IMG/VR virus record: IMGVR_UViG_3300035501_000268
Length of the DNA: 12,148 bases
DNA from: a virus
Reading direction: 5' to 3' (one strand)
This document shows positions 7,962 to 11,545 of this stretch, one piece after another. The position numbers were made by a program, and so were the translations under genes. Positions within the stretch are counted from its first letter, which is position 1, and every line of letters begins with the position of its first letter. Below the pieces are notes generated by a model. It was given only the letters and a program-made list of their open reading frames with translations, made no database searches and was not told the DNA's origin.

Positions 7962-8774
7962 GTGAAATATTTTATTGATTTTGAAGCGACTCAATATTCA
8001 GAAGAAATCATTTCTGTGGGATGTATTCGAGAAGATGGACAAACTTTTTATTCTTTAGTCGCTCCTGTAGATGGAAAGATTACTCCATTTATTACTAATT
8101 TAACCGGCATCACCTCAGAGATTATTAAAGATGCAATGTCGCCTGATTATGTTTTTGAAAGATTTTATAATTGGGCTTTTTTGGAAGATGAATCCCCTGA
8201 CTTTTATTGCTGGGGAGATTCAGATGTAGGATTCTTGCGGCAGACCTTCAAGCGAACAGACAGTAGAATGGCTAGATTTGCGATTGGATATGTTTGCGGC
8301 AGTCTTAGAGATTATTCAGAAAAAGTAAGTAAACTTTGTAATTTAGGAGATAAACTCTCTTTAATTCGTACTTGGAAATGTTTTGATTCAAGCGCAATTC
8401 AAAATCATAATGCGCTTGATGATGCAGTAATGCTTTATAATATTTATAAGGCATCGACACGAGAAGATTTCGTAACAAAAGTAAAAGAGAATTATCCACA
8501 GCATAAAATCAATGGGCAAAATCCTGTTCAGTATGTGCGCTGGACGCAAGAAGGATTCCCAGTTGGAACAATTTGTATTCTTAATAAACATAAAGTAGCA
8601 ATTATGAATTTTCCTGATAAAACAGAAGCTGCGAAATGGGTTTTGGAAAACAAGATAACTCCTAATCAACGTGATTTAATTAAAATAAGTTCAGTAGAAC
8701 AGAAAATTTTAAAGGCTTGTAATGGTACACCATATTGTGGTTTGAAATGGGTTATGGTAAAGGAGAATAATTAA
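7962..8774 (+). CDS. DEDDh-family 3'-5' exonuclease (DnaQ/RNase T-like) with a C-terminal extension, 270 aa
   Basis: Exo I motif FIDFEAT; Exo II region ...YCWGDSDVGFL; Exo III motif HNALDDAVMLYNIY (H-x4-D). GTG start 4 nt after a GAGGA RBS. Confidence 0.75.
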   Translation: MKYFIDFEATQYSEEIISVGCIREDGQTFYSLVAPVDGKITPFITNLTGITSEIIKDAMSPDYVFERFYNWAFLEDESPDFYCWGDSDVGFLRQTFKRTDSRMARFAIGYVCGSLRDYSEKVSKLCNLGDKLSLIRTWKCFDSSAIQNHNALDDAVMLYNIYKASTREDFVTKVKENYPQHKINGQNPVQYVRWTQEGFPVGTICILNKHKVAIMNFPDKTEAAKWVLENKITPNQRDLIKISSVEQKILKACNGTPYCGLKWVMVKENN

Positions 8775-8775
8775 A

Positions 8776-10053
8776 ATGTCTTATTGCGCTTTTATCACGA
8801 CGTTAAAGAATGTGCGCAAACATCCTAACGCAGATTCTTTGCAGTTAGCAGATTGCTTTGGATTTACTTCTATTATTGATATGTCTATGAAGGAAGGAGA
8901 TTTGGTAATCTATTTTCCTATTGAGGGGCAGCTTTCAGAAGAATATTGCGCGCAAAATAATTTAACTCGAGATAAAGGAGGATTTCTCCATCCTCAAAAG
9001 CGCAATATTAAAATTCTTAAATTGCGCGGAGAGTATTCAGAAGGACTGGTTATGCCGCTTTCTTCTGTTGAATATACAGGAGTAAAGAATTTGTGCGAAG
9101 GTGATTCTTTTACTTGCCTAAATAGACATGAGATTTGCCAAAAGTTCATTCCTTCTGTATCTCAAGAGAAAGAGAAAAAGCGAGTGCCCCATACTGAATC
9201 GCGCAAGCCTCGATATGGTAAGGAGTTTGCTCCTTTGTTTAAGGAACACTCTGACACTTCTCAATTAGCTTATTATTTGGATGATTTTAAAGCAGGCGAC
9301 CATATAGAAATTACTCTTAAAATGCACGGCACAAATGGTCGAACTGCTTTTGTGCCGGTCTTAAAAGGATATAAGCGCACTTTTTTGGATATCTTGTTTA
9401 AGCGCAAGGGAACGCCTATTTACGAATATGATTATGTGACTGGTTCTCGTCGTGTAATTCTAGGAAATGAAAAAGGCGGTTTCTATGGAGATAATGCCTT
9501 CCGCAAGGATTCCTCGGATTTGTTCAAGGGAAAACTTCATCGAGGAGAAACTGTATATTATGAAATTGTAGGATATGTAAATGAAAATACTCCGATAATG
9601 ATTTCTGGGCAAGTTCCTTTAGAATATCAAAAGCAATATGGAAATACTATGGACTTTTCTTATGGCTGCCGCAAAGGTGAGCACCGCATTTTTGTCTTTC
9701 GTATGACTTTTACTTCAGAAGATGGATATACTATTGAATACCCTCCTGATTTGGTTCGTCAGCGTTGCGCAGAAATGAATATTGATTGCGTTCCTGTCTT
9801 TTGGGAAGGTATTATACCGGATTGCGGTTCTTCAGGAGAATGGGTTAAATTTATCGCAGAAGGTTTTTATGATGGACCTGACCCCGTAGGCAAGACTCAT
9901 GTGCGCGAAGGGGTTGTTTGCCGCATCATCAATCGACCGCATTTCACTGCATACAAACATAAGAACCCTTTATTTAAGGAAGTCACTGGAATCGCAATAG
10001 ATAAGAAAAAGTCGTTTGAAGGAATAGACGAAGAATTGGTAAAGGAATTTTAA
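8776..10053 (+). CDS. ATP-dependent RNA ligase (Rnl2-like nucleotidyltransferase domain) fused to an N-terminal EMAP-II/Trbp111-like tRNA-binding OB domain, 425 aa
   Basis: RBS AAGGAG. N-terminus VRKHPNADSLQLADCFGF matches the (K)HP(D/N)AD(K/S)L signature of the tRNA-binding OB fold seen in the MetRS C-terminus, CsaA and Trbp111. Motif I KMHGTN resembles T4 Rnl2 KIHGTN (lysine adenylylation site). Motif IV is ETVYYEIVGYV; motif V is AYKHKNPLFK. Confidence 0.75.
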   Translation: MSYCAFITTLKNVRKHPNADSLQLADCFGFTSIIDMSMKEGDLVIYFPIEGQLSEEYCAQNNLTRDKGGFLHPQKRNIKILKLRGEYSEGLVMPLSSVEYTGVKNLCEGDSFTCLNRHEICQKFIPSVSQEKEKKRVPHTESRKPRYGKEFAPLFKEHSDTSQLAYYLDDFKAGDHIEITLKMHGTNGRTAFVPVLKGYKRTFLDILFKRKGTPIYEYDYVTGSRRVILGNEKGGFYGDNAFRKDSSDLFKGKLHRGETVYYEIVGYVNENTPIMISGQVPLEYQKQYGNTMDFSYGCRKGEHRIFVFRMTFTSEDGYTIEYPPDLVRQRCAEMNIDCVPVFWEGIIPDCGSSGEWVKFIAEGFYDGPDPVGKTHVREGVVCRIINRPHFTAYKHKNPLFKEVTGIAIDKKKSFEGIDEELVKEF

Positions 10054-10082
10054 TTATGGCACAATCTTATTAAAGCGGTTTA

Positions 10083-10262
10083 ATGGATAGAAGAAGTTTT
10101 TTGAATTGTGCCCGGACGCATTTTCGGCTAATTCCTTCTTCTACTGGTTATAAACGCTATGCTTATCCCGGGTATTATATTGTCAAAACGCATAAAGAAG
10201 AATTTCTTTTATATCCTTCTCGTGTTTTTGAAGAGATTTATGAATTAAAAGGAGATTGTTAA
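10083..10262 (+). CDS. possible small ORF, 59 aa (MDRRSFLNCARTHFRLIPSS...); no convincing RBS
   Basis: Open frame only; low coding confidence. Confidence 0.2.
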   Translation: MDRRSFLNCARTHFRLIPSSTGYKRYAYPGYYIVKTHKEEFLLYPSRVFEEIYELKGDC

Positions 10263-10263
10263 T

Positions 10264-10350
10264 ATGATGAAAACTGTTTGTTGGGTTATGTCTGGACCTT
10301 TATTTCTTGTCCTTTTGGCAGCGGAAGGCTTTCTTCTACGTTGCTTTTAA
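10264..10350 (+). CDS. small hydrophobic peptide, 28 aa (MMKTVCWVMSGPLFLVLLAAEGFLLRCF), single TM
   Basis: Strong RBS AAAGGAG 9 nt upstream; TAA stop; immediately followed by the RBS of the next gene. Confidence 0.4.
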   Translation: MMKTVCWVMSGPLFLVLLAAEGFLLRCF

Positions 10351-10369
10351 TTAAAGGAGGATTTTAATT

Positions 10370-10603
10370 ATGAGATTTAAACATAAGAAGGAAGGAGTTA
10401 TTATTGAAGCTGTCCAATGGGACGGTTGGAATGTTAAAGAAATTATGCAATTTTGTCCAATAGTAACTTCTGAAAATAACTCACTGTTTATTCCTTCGTA
10501 TGGACAAATTATTAACACGGATTTTGTTATTAAGAATGATGCTGGTGGTTTTTCTTTGTGTAAAGAGAACGATTTTTGGCAGACATATGAACGAATAAAG
10601 TAA
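10370..10603 (+). CDS. small protein, 77 aa, unknown function
   Basis: Strong RBS AAAGGAGG; intact ORF ending at TAA; followed by a terminator. Confidence 0.6.
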   Translation: MRFKHKKEGVIIEAVQWDGWNVKEIMQFCPIVTSENNSLFIPSYGQIINTDFVIKNDAGGFSLCKENDFWQTYERIK

Positions 10604-10610
10604 AATCAAT

Positions 10611-10650
10611 AGAGGGGTTCTCGATTAAAGAGAACCCTTTGATTTTTTAT
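10611..10650 (+). terminator. rho-independent terminator: 10-bp stem AGGGGTTCTC / GATTAAA / GAGAACCCTT followed by TTGATTTTTT
   Basis: GC-containing hairpin plus U-tract, with the U-tract merging into the next -35. Confidence 0.7.
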
Positions 10651-10667
10651 AAATAAAATGTTATAAT
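10639..10667 (+). promoter_or_regulatory. sigma70-like promoter: -35 TTGATT, 17-nt spacer, extended -10 TGtTATAAT, plus conserved leader
   Basis: Nearly identical over ~45 nt to the cassette at 5031-5075. Confidence 0.65.
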
Positions 10668-10692
10668 ATATATAAAGAATAAAGAAAGGAAT

Positions 10693-10848
10693 ATGATTGG
10701 TATGATGTTTAAAGCTATGGCTCTCAAGGGCAAATTGGCAGGATGTGTGGGTTTAGCGTCTGCTATGAATATTTTTGGAAATGTGTTATTTTATTATGGT
10801 GATGATGAAGTATGTTTAAAAATTAATGATATTCGGTATATTGCGTAA
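10693..10848 (+). CDS. small hydrophobic protein, 51 aa (MIGMMFKAMALKGKLAGCVGLASAMNIFGNVLFYYGDDEVCLKINDIRYIA)
   Basis: RBS AAAGGA 5 nt upstream; TAA stop 10 nt before the next gene's start. Confidence 0.4.
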   Translation: MIGMMFKAMALKGKLAGCVGLASAMNIFGNVLFYYGDDEVCLKINDIRYIA

Positions 10849-10858
10849 GGGTGAAAAG

Positions 10859-11545
10859 ATGGGAAGAGTTTTTTGTTGTTCCGACTTACACGGTGCAGAT
10901 GATTTATATTATGAGATTTTGAACTATATAAGACCAGACGATAAAGTTTTTTGTTTAGGCGATTGTGGAGATAGAGGTAAGCGCAGTTGGAAACTTATTA
11001 AAGAAGTTTATAACAATCCGCAATTTGTTTATCTTAAAGGAAACCACGAGGAGATGCTGGTTAAGGCTGGGCGAGAATTTATTAACTCAAATTATGTTAC
11101 AGGAAAGCATTATCAAAATCTAAAATGGAATGGCGGCGCAGATACTTTTGCGGCTTGGTCTTGCGCTTCCAGCAAAGAAGAATGGCTTGATAAATTAGAA
11201 AAACTTCCTACTTTTACCGTATATCTCAATACAGATGGTAAATTTGTTCTTTTATCTCATGCTGGTTATACTCCAACAAGAGATTGTCCTAAACCAACAG
11301 AATATAAAGCCATTTGGGATAGAGCACATTTTTTTGATACTTGGAATTTTTATGATAATGTAGTTTGCGTTCATGGTCATACTCCGGTTCAATTTTTATA
11401 TAAGGAACTCCAGTTGCCAAAAACTAATATGCCTATTACTTATTGCGATGGTCATAAAATAGATATTGATTTGGGAACATATGCGTCTCATTTAGCGGCT
11501 CTATTAAATCTGGATACTTTTGAAACGAAGGTGTTCCATTCTTGA
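10859..11545 (+). CDS. lambda-phosphatase-like (PPP-family) metallophosphoesterase, 228 aa; candidate RNA 3'-end healing phosphatase / 2',3'-cyclic phosphodiesterase
   Basis: Motifs CCSDLHG, GDCGDRG and GNHE (the canonical D-x-H...GDxxDRG...GNHE triad), then HAGYTP and VHGHTP, all collinear with lambda PPase as recalled. ATG 10859 with RBS AAGGG (the track's 10826 start would overlap the upstream ORF). Confidence 0.75.
   Translation: MGRVFCCSDLHGADDLYYEILNYIRPDDKVFCLGDCGDRGKRSWKLIKEVYNNPQFVYLKGNHEEMLVKAGREFINSNYVTGKHYQNLKWNGGADTFAAWSCASSKEEWLDKLEKLPTFTVYLNTDGKFVLLSHAGYTPTRDCPKPTEYKAIWDRAHFFDTWNFYDNVVCVHGHTPVQFLYKELQLPKTNMPITYCDGHKIDIDLGTYASHLAALLNLDTFETKVFHS

What the first reader, a model, noticed from the sequence alone, without database searches (positions are those of the whole stretch)
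7962..11545. tRNA-targeted RNA repair module: EMAP-II-like tRNA-binding domain fused to an Rnl2-type ligase, with a lambda-phosphatase-like end-healing enzyme and a DEDDh exonuclease
The ligase has a nucleotidyltransferase domain with motif I KMHGTN (T4 Rnl2 has KIHGTN). It is preceded by a ~100-aa domain bearing the (K)HP(N/D)ADSL signature of the Trbp111/EMAP-II tRNA-binding OB fold. I do not recall this domain fusion being described for RNA ligases. A PPP-family metallophosphoesterase lies two cassettes downstream, comparable to the phosphatase domain of bacterial Pnkp, and a DEDDh 3' exonuclease lies immediately upstream. Together with the phage tRNA cluster, these suggest a system that trims, heals and reseals tRNAs cut by host anticodon nucleases such as PrrC, RloC or VapC-like enzymes. 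This would be functionally analogous to T4 Pnk/Rnl1 but built from different parts. No 5'-kinase is visible in the window.
Basis: partly seen in the sequence, partly recalled or inferred. Interest (0 to 1): 0.7.

Follow-up and report, generated by a model that had tools for sequence, protein, structure and literature searches.

The report
Phage Rnl5-type RNA ligase repair island
The gene is a phage copy of an already described kind of RNA ligase (the Rnl5 family, which always carries this tRNA-binding-like front domain), and it sits among RNA-repair and anti-defence genes, so it is a sound but largely ordinary finding.

Summary
7962-8774 encodes a DEDDh exonuclease. 8776-10053 encodes a 425-aa ligase with HPNADSL and motif I KMHGTN. 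10826-11545 encodes a lambda-phosphatase-like metallophosphoesterase.

The "undescribed fusion" is the defining architecture of the Rnl5 family (DraRnl, NgrRnl): an N-terminal OB fold, an Rnl2-like nucleotidyltransferase domain, and no C-terminal domain. The model's 13 best PDB matches are all NgrRnl over full length (E=2e-15). Its N domain also matches MetRS-C, EMAP-II and Trbp111, a likeness to tRNA-synthetase OB folds noted for DraRnl by 2007. The family has at least 6986 homologues and appears in 413 phage records, those inspected mostly annotated as RNA ligase.

The RNA-repair reading gains support from synteny in 80 related viral contigs:
- an RlaP-like nucleotidyltransferase lies within 10 kb in 59;
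- a T4-Pnk-like kinase, paired with a Metallophos_2 gene or fused to HD, is present in most;
- the exonuclease lies directly upstream in 19.

In the window RlaP (5315-6077) is frameshifted. The missing kinase is predicted just beyond the right edge.

tRNA specificity, and repair roles for the exonuclease and phosphatase, remain inferred. The phosphatase's closest conserved neighbour is NADAR. Verdict: a new member of a known kind.

The parts
8776..10053 (+). Rnl5-type ATP-dependent RNA ligase, 425 aa, a divergent phage clade. The OB-fold N domain is aa 1-~123 (nt 8776-9144). A basic linker, aa 124-164, is modelled with low confidence. The nucleotidyltransferase domain is aa ~165-397 (nt 9268-9966). 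A 28-aa tail follows, with no C-terminal domain.
   Evidence: Pfam PF21189 and PF09414. phrog_968, E=1.8e-63. TIGR02306 RNA_lig_DRB0094, E=4.9e-14, below its cutoff. Foldseek's top 13 hits are all NgrRnl, E=2.4e-15, about 415 columns. AF2 model pLDDT 74.
9319..9336 (+). Motif I, KMHGTN. K182 is the predicted AMP-accepting lysine.
   Evidence: K182, H184 and G185 are invariant in 29 homologues. In relative L090 an intein is inserted right after this motif.
8821..8841 (+). HPNADSL signature in the first strands of the OB domain.
   Evidence: H16, N18, A19 and D20 are invariant in the family. NgrRnl has IAGAEAI at the aligned position.
7962..8774 (+). DEDDh 3'-5' exonuclease (aa 1-165) joined to a conserved, uncharacterised C-terminal module (aa ~196-270). 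It is probably translationally coupled to the ligase.
   Evidence: Pfam RNase_T. Invariant D6, E8, D88, H149, D154. AF2 pLDDT 94. Foldseek matches 3'hExo/ERI1, DnaQ, TREX and RNase AS, all at about 1e-5, so RNA versus DNA is not resolved. It lies directly upstream of the ligase in 19 of the 22 related loci that carry it, among 80 loci. AAGGAG at 8759-8764, TAA at 8772-8774, ATG at 8776.
10826..11545 (+). Lambda-phosphatase-like binuclear metallophosphoesterase, 239 aa. It is a candidate 2',3'-cyclic phosphodiesterase or 3'-phosphatase, or alternatively a protein or ADP-ribose-derivative phosphatase.
   Evidence: Pfam Metallophos. phrog_246 NinI-like, E=9e-32. PDB 1g5b, E=1.6e-6. Found in 31/80 loci, usually in the order NADAR-PPase-kinase-Metallophos_2.
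11542..11988 (+). NADAR-domain protein, 148 aa. Its TTG start overlaps the phosphatase stop codon.
   Evidence: Pfam NADAR, 112 bits, E=4e-32. Adjacent to the phosphatase in 12 of 20 loci that hold both. Replaced by a Macro-domain gene in the same slot in L090. Junction sequence.
5315..6077 (+). RlaP-like Pol-beta nucleotidyltransferase, split by a frameshift near 5848. The N-terminal 185-aa ORF is 5315-5872; the C-terminal part continues in another frame at 5850-6077.
   Evidence: Pfam RlaP, weak (E=0.007 here; 7e-5 to 0.002 in relatives). phrog_388, E=2.4e-12. The most frequent neighbour of the ligase: 59/80 loci, adjacent in 23. Frameshift shown. Intact in L090.
7630..7688 (+). Terminator-like hairpin followed by a promoter-like site. 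Predicted start of the exonuclease-ligase transcription unit.
   Evidence: Terminator-like sites: 11 found against 3.8 +/- 1.8 in shuffles.
10612..10667 (+). Terminator-like hairpin followed by a promoter-like site. Predicted end of the ligase unit and start of the phosphatase-NADAR unit.
10083..10603 (+). Two small ORFs (10083-10262 and 10370-10603) in the same predicted unit as the ligase. Function unknown.
   Evidence: No Pfam hit. The ORF at 10370 matches phrog_1810 and phrog_419, both of unknown function. Neither is conserved next to the ligase in the 80 loci.

Best explanation
The ligase is a divergent phage member of the Rnl5 family of ATP-dependent RNA ligases.

Proposed ligase mechanism (inferred from NgrRnl and DraRnl):
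- It reacts with ATP to form a covalent K182-AMP intermediate. The N-terminal OB domain helps position the pyrophosphate leaving group.
- It transfers AMP to a 5'-phosphate end.
- It seals a 3'-OH/5'-PO4 break whose 3'-OH side is RNA, held in a duplex or stem context such as a cut tRNA stem-loop.

The ligase is the sealing enzyme of a phage RNA-repair and anti-defence gene island. Proposed roles of the other genes, all inferred:
- RlaP-like nucleotidyltransferase (5315-6077, apparently damaged in this window): restores one or two lost 3' nucleotides.
- T4-Pnk-like kinase with its adjacent Metallophos_2 partner (predicted just beyond the right end of the window): supplies the 5'-phosphate and clears 2',3'-phosphates.
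- Co-translated DEDDh exonuclease: trims 3' ends before sealing.
- Lambda-like phosphoesterase with NADAR: either contributes 2',3'-cyclic phosphate removal or processes ADP-ribose-derived products.

Shown here: the domain identities, the catalytic residues and the conserved gene neighbourhoods. Inferred: substrates, the order of steps, and the roles of the exonuclease and of this phosphoesterase.
For: Ligase identity:
- Pfam OB-fold and RNA_ligase domains, TIGR02306 (DraRnl model) E=4.9e-14, phrog_968 E=1.8e-63.
- Foldseek full-length matches to NgrRnl, E=2.4e-15, well ahead of REL1 and T4 Rnl2 at about 1e-6.
- Invariant K182/H184/G185, R225/R226, E263, E378-G-V-V381 and K394/K396.
- The protein ends 28 aa after motif V.
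- In the close relative L090 an intein sits exactly after motif I.

Context in 80 IMG/VR loci:
- RlaP-like gene in 59.
- Kinase-HD fusion in 34, adjacent to RlaP in 26 of 31.
- AAA_33 kinase in 37, followed directly by Metallophos_2 in 31 of 36. The kinase's best PDB match is T4 polynucleotide kinase, E=4.7e-5.
- Thg1 in 12.
- Exonuclease in 23, and directly upstream of the ligase in 19 of the 22 where both genes were scored.
- After clustering the ligases at 75% identity, 22 of 26 lineages have a kinase within 10 kb.

More distant lineages:
- Bacillus phage PBC2 has a kinase-HD homologue immediately after its ligase.
- Mycobacteriophage Lolly9 has a polynucleotide kinase about 3 kb upstream.
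- The closest relative L090 has the order EXO-ligase-Macro-PPase-small ORF-AAA_33 kinase-Metallophos_2.

Literature:
- Rnl5 biochemistry and the role of the N domain (PMC4408790, PMC7261155, PMC1807946).
- RlaP adds 1-2 nucleotides to RNA 3'-OH ends and is linked to RNA ligases (PMC12776372, PMC7824862).
- Lambda phosphatase and the CthPnkp phosphatase domain share a fold, and both have 2',3'-cyclic phosphodiesterase activity (PMC2190708).

Coupling signal: AAGGAG lies inside the last codons of the exonuclease gene, 11 nt before the ligase ATG.
Against: - No member of this phage clade was found to be assayed in the papers I read, and the physiological substrates of Rnl5 enzymes are stated to be unknown (PMC4408790, PMC5397189).
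- Sequence similarity to NgrRnl is weak: phmmer E=0.012, N domain only, and the family profile gives E=0.24. TIGR02306 scores 52 bits against a cutoff of 151. The window protein scores just below Pfam's cutoff on the OB domain (26.7 against 27).
- The window has no kinase, and its RlaP gene is frameshifted.
- The phosphoesterase is in a separate predicted transcription unit. It is closest to lambda protein phosphatase and PP1, and it pairs with NADAR or Macro more tightly than with the ligase.
- The exonuclease fold does not distinguish RNA from DNA substrates.
- Many of the 80 loci are related phages with shared synteny, so the counts are not independent events. At 65% ligase identity there are only 7 clusters.
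Confidence: 0.62

Rival explanations
1. Only the ligase, with RlaP and the off-window kinase, is an RNA-repair enzyme. The exonuclease and the phosphoesterase are unrelated neighbours in an early or anti-defence region. The exonuclease would be a DnaQ-like DNA exonuclease or a degrader of host signalling nucleotides. The phosphoesterase would be a NinI/lambda-type protein phosphatase, or it would work with NADAR or Macro on ADP-ribose derivatives.
For: - The phosphatase is adjacent to NADAR in 12 of 20 loci but to the ligase in only 6 of 30. A Macro gene replaces NADAR in the same slot in L090.
- The best solved relatives are lambda phosphatase and PP1; PHROG calls it NinI-like.
- It lies in a separate predicted transcription unit.
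- Exonuclease homologues are named DNA polymerase III epsilon-like or KapD by their sources, and Foldseek hits include Pol III epsilon and TREX1.
- The window also carries other anti-defence genes, such as a T7 gp5.9-like RecBCD inhibitor at 5091-5318.
- Phage NADAR and Macro proteins are proposed to target ADP-ribose signals (PMC9503650).
Against: - The exonuclease-ligase junction is tight (one base between stop and start, with the ribosome-binding site inside the exonuclease gene). The pair recurs in 12 of 26 ligase lineages at 75% identity.
- In relatives the phosphatase lies in a conserved block immediately before the Pnk-like kinase and Metallophos_2 pair.
- Lambda phosphatase itself cleaves 2',3'-cyclic nucleotides (PMC2190708).
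Confidence: 0.25
2. The ligase serves DNA metabolism rather than RNA repair. It would seal nicks where a short RNA patch or primer abuts DNA during phage replication or repair, with the DnaQ-like exonuclease editing the 3' end.
For: - DraRnl and NgrRnl seal duplex nicks in which only the 3'-OH strand must be RNA. Loss of DraRnl sensitises Deinococcus to radiation, and repair of RNA-patched DNA gaps has been proposed (PMC4408790, PMC5397189).
- The exonuclease belongs to the DnaQ-like superfamily.
- In PBC2 a DNA ligase gene lies 2 kb away, in a replication-type region.
Against: The recurrent neighbours are RNA-specific: RlaP, for which only RNAs among E. coli macromolecules were substrates (PMC12776372), Thg1, and Pnk-like kinase-phosphoesterase pairs. 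No replication genes are seen in the window.
Confidence: 0.08
3. One reading: the N-terminal OB domain is a working tRNA-binding module. It would make this ligase tRNA-specific, in the way the C domain of T4 Rnl1 confers tRNA specificity.
For: - This phage clade keeps the HPNAD(R/K)L string that I recall as typical of Trbp111/EMAP-II domains, whereas NgrRnl has lost it.
- Structural matches to MetRS-C, EMAP-II and Trbp111 at rmsd 2.3-3.0 A over about 100 residues.
- tRNA_bind Pfam hits in 3 of 29 homologues.
- The phage carries tRNA genes, and relatives carry Thg1.
Against: - In the one Rnl5 enzyme with a solved structure, the OB domain contacts the ATP gamma-phosphate and promotes adenylylation. 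Deleting it leaves sealing of a pre-adenylylated nick intact (PMC7261155, PMC4408790).
- The window protein has no tRNA_bind hit even at E<=10.
- The conserved string may be structural rather than part of an RNA-binding surface.
Confidence: 0.15

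Closest known systems
Rnl5 family: Naegleria gruberi NgrRnl (PDB 5cot) and Deinococcus radiodurans DraRnl (DRB0094, TIGR02306)
   Same: - Same domain order: N-terminal OB fold, then the nucleotidyltransferase domain, then nothing after motif V.
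- Full-length Foldseek match, E=2.4e-15, and a TIGR02306 hit across the OB domain, linker and motif I.
- NgrRnl Asp53 aligns with the family's nearly invariant D50, which is E50 in the window.
- Phage homologues were already noted in the founding papers (PMC1807946, PMC7261155).
   Different: - About 85 aa longer (425 against 340).
- It has a basic linker modelled with low confidence (aa 124-164) and insertions in the nucleotidyltransferase domain.
- Sequence similarity is marginal, and it scores below the TIGR02306 cutoff.
- It keeps the HPNAD motif that NgrRnl lacks.
- No paper read here reported an assay of this clade.
T4 Rnl2 and trypanosome REL1 (Rnl2 family)
   Same: These are the next-best structural matches, E about 1e-6. 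Both families are nick-sealing RNA ligases (PMC4408790).
   Different: Rnl2 has a signature C-terminal helical domain and no N-terminal OB domain (PMC7261155). The window protein has the reverse arrangement.
T4 Pnkp plus Rnl1 tRNA repair, and bacterial Pnkp/Hen1
   Same: The same heal-and-seal logic. Relatives encode a T4-Pnk-like kinase next to a metallophosphoesterase. This resembles the kinase plus lambda-like phosphatase arrangement of CthPnkp (PMC2190708).
   Different: The parts are separate genes rather than one polypeptide. The ligase is Rnl5-type rather than Rnl1 or Rnl4. No Hen1 was seen in the loci examined. No kinase lies inside the window.
RlaP-associated RNA repair operons (Burroughs and Aravind 2016, as cited in PMC12776372 and PMC7824862)
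   Same: A Pol-beta nucleotidyltransferase genomically tied to an RNA ligase and a kinase-phosphoesterase. Jumbo-phage surveys report that the distribution of RlaP mirrors that of RNA ligases (PMC7824862).
   Different: The RlaP match is weak, at or below Pfam's cutoff. The window copy is frameshifted. The survey lists mainly Rnl1, Rnl2 and RtcB ligases and mentions only 'rare divergent versions' outside them (PMC7824862).
Trbp111 / EMAP-II / MetRS-C / PheRS-beta B2 (Pfam tRNA_bind)
   Same: The OB fold of the N domain superposes at rmsd 2.3-3.0 A over about 100 residues. The HPNAD-type string is shared; this rests on my recollection of the family signature.
   Different: The window protein does not reach tRNA_bind in Pfam. 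It is fused to a ligase domain. tRNA binding has not been tested.

Membership tests
Rnl5 RNA ligases | N-terminal OB-fold module placed before the nucleotidyltransferase domain | tested here: met
   Pfam PF21189 on aa 7-95 (26.7 bits, cutoff 27; 28 of 29 homologues match, best E=4.7e-10). phmmer alignment to the NgrRnl N domain. Full-length Foldseek hits to NgrRnl.
Rnl5 RNA ligases | Covalent nucleotidyltransferase motifs with a motif I lysine | tested here: met
   K182-x-H-G, R225/R226, E263, E378-G-V-V and K394-x-K396 are invariant in 29 homologues. Pfam RNA_ligase covers aa 176-385. Assigning motif names to these positions is my own reading of the alignment.
Rnl5 RNA ligases | No domain appended after the nucleotidyltransferase domain | tested here: met
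   Only 28 residues follow K394-H-K-N397. They are modelled as one helix and a low-confidence tail.
Rnl5 RNA ligases | Scores as an equivalog of DraRnl (NCBIfam TIGR02306) | tested here: not met
   52 bits against a cutoff of 151. The match stops after motif I. It is therefore a divergent subfamily and not an orthologue of DraRnl.
Rnl5 RNA ligases | Seals 3'-OH/5'-PO4 duplex nicks that have an RNA 3'-OH strand, prefers manganese, and needs the N domain for adenylylation | not testable with these tools
   Biochemical property (PMC4408790, PMC1807946).
Rnl2 RNA ligases | Signature C-terminal helical domain after the nucleotidyltransferase domain | tested here: not met
   No C-terminal domain is present. 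Foldseek aligns only about 260-280 columns to T4 Rnl2 and REL1.
tRNA_bind domain (Trbp111/EMAP-II) | Matches Pfam PF01588 | tested here: not met
   The window protein has no hit at E<=10. Three of 29 homologues match weakly, best E=0.006.
tRNA_bind domain (Trbp111/EMAP-II) | Same OB-fold topology | tested here: met
   Foldseek: 5h34_B rmsd 2.3 A over 100 columns, 1e7z 3.0 A over 103, 3ers 3.0 A over 101; E=0.013-0.09.
tRNA_bind domain (Trbp111/EMAP-II) | Binds tRNA | not testable with these tools
   Needs a binding assay.
RlaP nucleotidyltransferases (PF10127) | Matches the family model | tested here: inconclusive
   It is the top Pfam hit in every case but scores at or below the cutoff: 16.6 bits for the window, and 18.4, 21.4 and 23.0 for relatives, against a cutoff of 23. 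phrog_388 'nucleotidyltransferase', E=2.4e-12. No solved relative was found.
RlaP nucleotidyltransferases (PF10127) | Gene neighbourhood with an RNA ligase | tested here: met
   Within 10 kb of the ligase in 59 of 80 loci, adjacent to it in 23, and adjacent to the kinase-HD gene in 26 of 31.
RlaP nucleotidyltransferases (PF10127) | Intact reading frame in this window | tested here: not met
   There is a frameshift near 5848. Relatives are single ORFs of about 270 aa.
Pnkp-type end healing | P-loop polynucleotide 5'-kinase | tested here: not met
   None in the window. Present in relatives: AAA_33, best PDB match T4 Pnk 1ly1. It lies downstream of the phosphatase in L090.
Pnkp-type end healing | Phosphoesterase of the lambda-phosphatase/CthPnkp clade that acts on 2',3'-phosphate ends | tested here: inconclusive
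   The metallophosphoesterase motifs DxHG, GDxxDRG and GNHE, plus later conserved histidines, can be read in the sequence. Lambda phosphatase is the best solved match, and no Pnkp chain appears at E<=1. Activity is not testable here.
DEDDh exonucleases | Exo I, II and III acidic residues with H-x4-D in Exo III | tested here: met
   D6, E8, D88, H149 and D154 are invariant in 34 homologues. Pfam RNase_T.

The most novel reading that the evidence does not exclude
This untested phage clade of Rnl5 ligases has kept a working tRNA-binding OB domain. It retains the HPNAD(R/K)L string that NgrRnl lost. It would form, with its translationally coupled DEDDh exonuclease, a trim-and-seal pair specific for broken tRNAs. 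In the wider version, the whole conserved block acts as one phage-encoded, vault-like ribonucleoprotein RNA-repair system. That block is: DUF2828/vWA protein, major-vault-protein homologue, RlaP, phosphoesterases, exonuclease, ligase, NADAR or Macro, and Pnk-like kinase.
Probability: 0.12. Interest if true: 0.7.

Novelty: new member of a known kind. Interest (0 to 1): 0.28.

Why it matters
If the repair reading is right, this lineage of large phages carries a full kit for undoing host attacks on tRNA or other RNAs. The lineage is probably from the gut and appears to be amber-recoded. The kit is built around an Rnl5 ligase rather than the T4-type Rnl1. That would give Rnl5 enzymes a physiological role, which their discoverers describe as still uncharted. 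The practical value is modest. The result corrects the claim of a new domain fusion and points to the real partners, RlaP and a kinase just off the window. It also flags a large, abundant and apparently unassayed ligase clade (at least 6986 homologues) as a reasonable target for biochemistry.

Tried and rejected
- Nucleotide search of the whole window against GenBank phages found no match.
- A single-protein scan of viral contigs found no relatives. It worked only with an alignment.
- I tried to find the source contig to see the right flank. The NADAR protein is on record only on a 922-bp contig. Exact-match scans with a 46-mer from the window's end found nothing in viral or metagenome contigs.
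- A profile of close homologues against PDB sequences was less sensitive than the single sequence, so the link to NgrRnl rests on TIGR02306 and on fold comparison.
- The Burroughs and Aravind 2016 paper could not be read. Its content is cited second-hand.
- The idea that the DUF2828/DUF7788 neighbour is TROVE/Ro-like could not be verified and is kept only as a lead.
- The exonuclease's C-terminal module has no Pfam hit and no structural match.
- I rejected the idea that the kinase is hidden in the window, for example behind amber codons. Reading through TAG reveals only GIY-YIG and HNH homing endonucleases, and tblastn with relatives' kinases finds nothing.
- I rejected filing the ligase as Rnl2, because it has no C-terminal domain.

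Full report
**1. What is in the window**

The window is AT-rich (about 29-46% GC by 500-base window). Every convincing gene lies on the + strand. The finding's coordinates are accurate.

- 7962-8774 encodes a 270-aa protein with an RNase_T/DEDDh domain.
- 8776-10053 encodes a 425-aa protein with a 'PHA02142 OB-fold' domain (aa 7-95) and an RNA_ligase domain (aa 176-385).
- 10826-11545 encodes a calcineurin-like metallophosphoesterase.
- The strings KHPNADSL and KMHGTN are present as described.

ARAGORN and Rfam find only two tRNA genes, so 'tRNA cluster' overstates it.

Pairs of terminator-like and promoter-like sites at 5001-5059, 7630-7688 and 10612-10667 divide the region into three predicted units:
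- gp5.9-like gene, RlaP-like gene, GIY-YIG gene and two membrane ORFs;
- a small ORF, the exonuclease, the ligase and two small ORFs;
- a small ORF, the phosphatase and NADAR.

**2. The ligase is an Rnl5-type enzyme, so the fusion is not new**

- NCBIfam's model for the Deinococcus ligase DRB0094 (TIGR02306) matches aa 10-193 at E=4.9e-14, though below its cutoff.
- The best solved sequence relative is Naegleria NgrRnl, N domain only, E=0.012.
- An AlphaFold model built on 29 homologues (pLDDT 74; the linker aa 124-164 has low confidence) gives NgrRnl as its 13 best Foldseek matches. These cover about 415 columns at E=2.4e-15. REL1 and T4 Rnl2 follow at about 1e-6.
- The same search matches the N domain alone to PheRS-beta, MetRS-C (rmsd 2.3 A over 100 columns), EMAP-II (1e7z) and Trbp111 (3ers, 8vtz).
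- Pfam tRNA_bind matches 3 of 29 homologues weakly.

However, this is the architecture that defines Rnl5. [quoted passage not shown] The family was named Rnl5 in 2015 (PMC4408790). It is recorded in bacteria, phages, archaea and unicellular eukaryotes (PMC7261155). In NgrRnl the OB domain contacts the ATP gamma-phosphate and promotes lysine adenylylation (PMC7261155).

**3. Catalytic competence and family size**

K182, H184, G185, R225, R226, E263, E378-G-V-V381, K394 and K396 are invariant in the alignment. The protein ends 28 residues after K394-H-K-N397.

The word-indexed search scored at least 6986 homologues at E<=1e-5 among its 8000 scored candidates. tblastn finds the family in 413 GenBank phage records, and most of those inspected are annotated 'RNA ligase'. 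These include Bacillus phages at about 44% identity and mycobacteriophages at about 30%.

The clade differs from NgrRnl and DraRnl in three ways:
- it is about 85 aa longer;
- it has a basic linker and insertions in the catalytic domain;
- it retains HPNAD where NgrRnl has IAGAE.

It is a divergent subfamily, not an orthologue.

**4. Gene neighbourhood**

I fetched 80 related loci from IMG/VR and clustered their + strand ORFs. I then named the recurrent clusters with Pfam and PDB searches.

Frequencies within 10 kb of the ligase:
- RlaP-like nucleotidyltransferase: 59, adjacent to the ligase in 23;
- DUF2828/DUF7788 protein: 46;
- Metallophos_2 protein of 186 aa: 41;
- AAA_33 kinase of 174 aa: 37. 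Its best PDB match is T4 polynucleotide kinase, and it is followed directly by the Metallophos_2 gene in 31 of 36 loci;
- kinase-HD fusion: 34, directly after RlaP in 26 of 31;
- a third metallophosphoesterase of 260 aa: 34;
- the window-type phosphatase: 31;
- the exonuclease: 23, and directly upstream of the ligase in 19 of the 22 where both genes were scored;
- major-vault-protein homologue: 23;
- NADAR: 22;
- Thg1: 12.

Two layouts recur:
- ligase, RlaP, kinase-HD;
- the window's type: DUF2828, MVP, RlaP, Metallophos-260, exonuclease, ligase, NADAR, phosphatase, kinase, Metallophos_2.

When the ligases are clustered at 75% identity there are 26 lineages. Of these, 22 have a kinase nearby, 16 have RlaP, 13 have the phosphatase and 12 have the exonuclease directly upstream.

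More distant phages agree. In Bacillus phage PBC2 the 'hypothetical protein' right after the ligase is a kinase-HD homologue, E=1.5e-42. Mycobacteriophage Lolly9 has a polynucleotide kinase about 3 kb upstream.

The closest relative found is L090, whose exonuclease is 63% identical. After its ligase come Macro, the phosphatase, a small ORF, an AAA_33 kinase and Metallophos_2. The window ends 160 bases after NADAR. It is not in the window.

**5. The partners inside the finding**

The exonuclease is a bona fide DEDDh enzyme: D6, E8, D88, H149 and D154 are invariant, and the model has pLDDT 94. Its structural neighbours include both RNA enzymes (3'hExo/ERI1, RNase AS) and DNA enzymes (Pol III epsilon, TREX1) at similar scores. 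The substrate is therefore open.

Its link to the ligase is the tightest in the finding. A single base separates the stop and start codons, and an AAGGAG sits inside the last codons of the exonuclease gene.

The phosphoesterase carries the metallophosphoesterase motifs. Its closest relatives are lambda phosphatase (E=1.6e-6) and PP1. However, lambda phosphatase and the phosphatase domain of CthPnkp belong to the same clade, and both cleave 2',3'-cyclic nucleotides (PMC2190708), so the test does not decide the matter.

The phosphoesterase's most constant neighbours are NADAR or Macro and the kinase, not the ligase. It may be an end-healing enzyme or a processor of ADP-ribose derivatives. Phage NADAR and Macro proteins have been proposed for both roles (PMC9503650, PMC7824862).

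**6.

5315-5872 is an RlaP-like Pol-beta nucleotidyltransferase. The Pfam match is weak (E=0.007), phrog_388 gives E=2.4e-12, and relatives reach the Pfam cutoff. RlaP proteins are named for their association with RNA ligases. They add one or two nucleotides to RNA 3'-OH ends, and this is proposed to counter nucleases that remove a nucleotide after cutting (PMC12776372, PMC7824862).

In the window the gene is broken. Relatives read '...RYI(A/D)GESYEDCL...' in one frame. The window lacks about five codons there and continues in another frame. L090 is intact. I cannot tell whether this is a real mutation or an assembly error.

**7. Mechanism and rivals**

The best-supported account has four steps:
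- Breaks left by host RNases are healed by a Pnk-like kinase and a phosphoesterase.
- They are optionally rebuilt by RlaP.
- They are perhaps trimmed by the exonuclease.
- They are sealed by the Rnl5-type ligase through K182-AMP.

Only the protein identities, the conserved residues and the synteny are shown. Everything about substrates is inferred.

The main rival keeps the ligase in RNA repair but treats the exonuclease and phosphatase as independent anti-defence or housekeeping genes. A smaller rival puts the ligase in the repair of RNA-patched DNA, as has been suggested for DraRnl (PMC4408790, PMC5397189).

**8. Verdict**

The claimed novelty (an undescribed fusion) is wrong. The system is a new, divergent member of a known kind within a known type of phage RNA-repair island. 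Interest is modest. It rests on three points: no assay of this large clade was found, the exonuclease is coupled to the ligase, and the island is linked to a phage major-vault-protein homologue.

Noticed in passing
window 787-860; 1100-1708; 6127-6792: Amber recoding is likely. A suppressor tRNA with anticodon CUA is present. When TAG is read through, two apparent gaps become full-length homing-endonuclease genes: an HNH gene with 3 in-frame TAG, and a GIY-YIG gene with 4 in-frame TAG (Pfam GIY-YIG, E=1.6e-8). None of the repair genes contains TAG; they end in TAA or TGA.
   Followed up: partly
window 1694-1892: Group I intron (Rfam RF00028, 58.9 bits, E=4e-13) lying immediately after the HNH endonuclease ORF. 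I did not identify what it interrupts.
   Followed up: no
window 2601-4991: A 796-aa homologue of the eukaryotic major vault protein (Pfam MVP_shoulder E=1.5e-17, Vault_3 E=1e-7). It is conserved at 55-70% identity in 23 of 80 related loci and usually follows a DUF2828/DUF7788 gene. Phage MVPs were first reported in a 2023 preprint (10.1101/2023.11.10.566534), which has no occurrence of 'ligase', 'tRNA' or 'TROVE' in its text.
   Followed up: partly
window 5091-5318: A 75-aa ORF matching the T7 gp5.9 RecBCD inhibitor (PF25708, E=1.5e-8). It supports an anti-defence character for this region.
   Followed up: no
window 5840-5860: The RlaP-like gene is frameshifted, with about five codons missing relative to homologues. 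A GIY-YIG homing endonuclease gene lies just downstream.
   Followed up: yes
L090 10991-13396: In the closest relative the ligase gene carries an intein (Hint/Intein_splicing plus LAGLIDADG) inserted right after motif I, KMHGT. The flanks match window ligase aa 1-185 and about 186-420.
   Followed up: partly
L090 13773-14219 versus window 11542-11988: A Macro-domain gene lies next to the phosphatase in L090, where the window and 22 of the 80 IMG/VR loci have NADAR. This looks like displacement between two unrelated ADP-ribose-processing domains.
   Followed up: no
L003 7533-13383; L088 8990-11449; L006 1-2120: In distant phages the homologous ligase lies beside NAD+ salvage or reconstitution genes: nicotinamidase, a phosphoribosyltransferase, NAMPT/NAPRT-like genes, NAD synthase, an NMNAT-like gene and a Prs-like kinase. 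The reason is unexplained.
   Followed up: no
window 6990-7325 and 7325-7645: Two adjacent ORFs of 111 and 106 aa with hydrophobic N-terminal halves that look like membrane segments. Both match the same two adjacent regions in L090, which suggests they are paralogues. Function unknown.
   Followed up: no
window 8547-8771 (exonuclease aa ~196-270): A confidently modelled C-terminal module with conserved F217, A223, Y258 and W263. It has no Pfam or PDB match. Its pattern reminded me of the small DNA-binding modules of homing endonucleases, but I did not verify this.
   Followed up: partly
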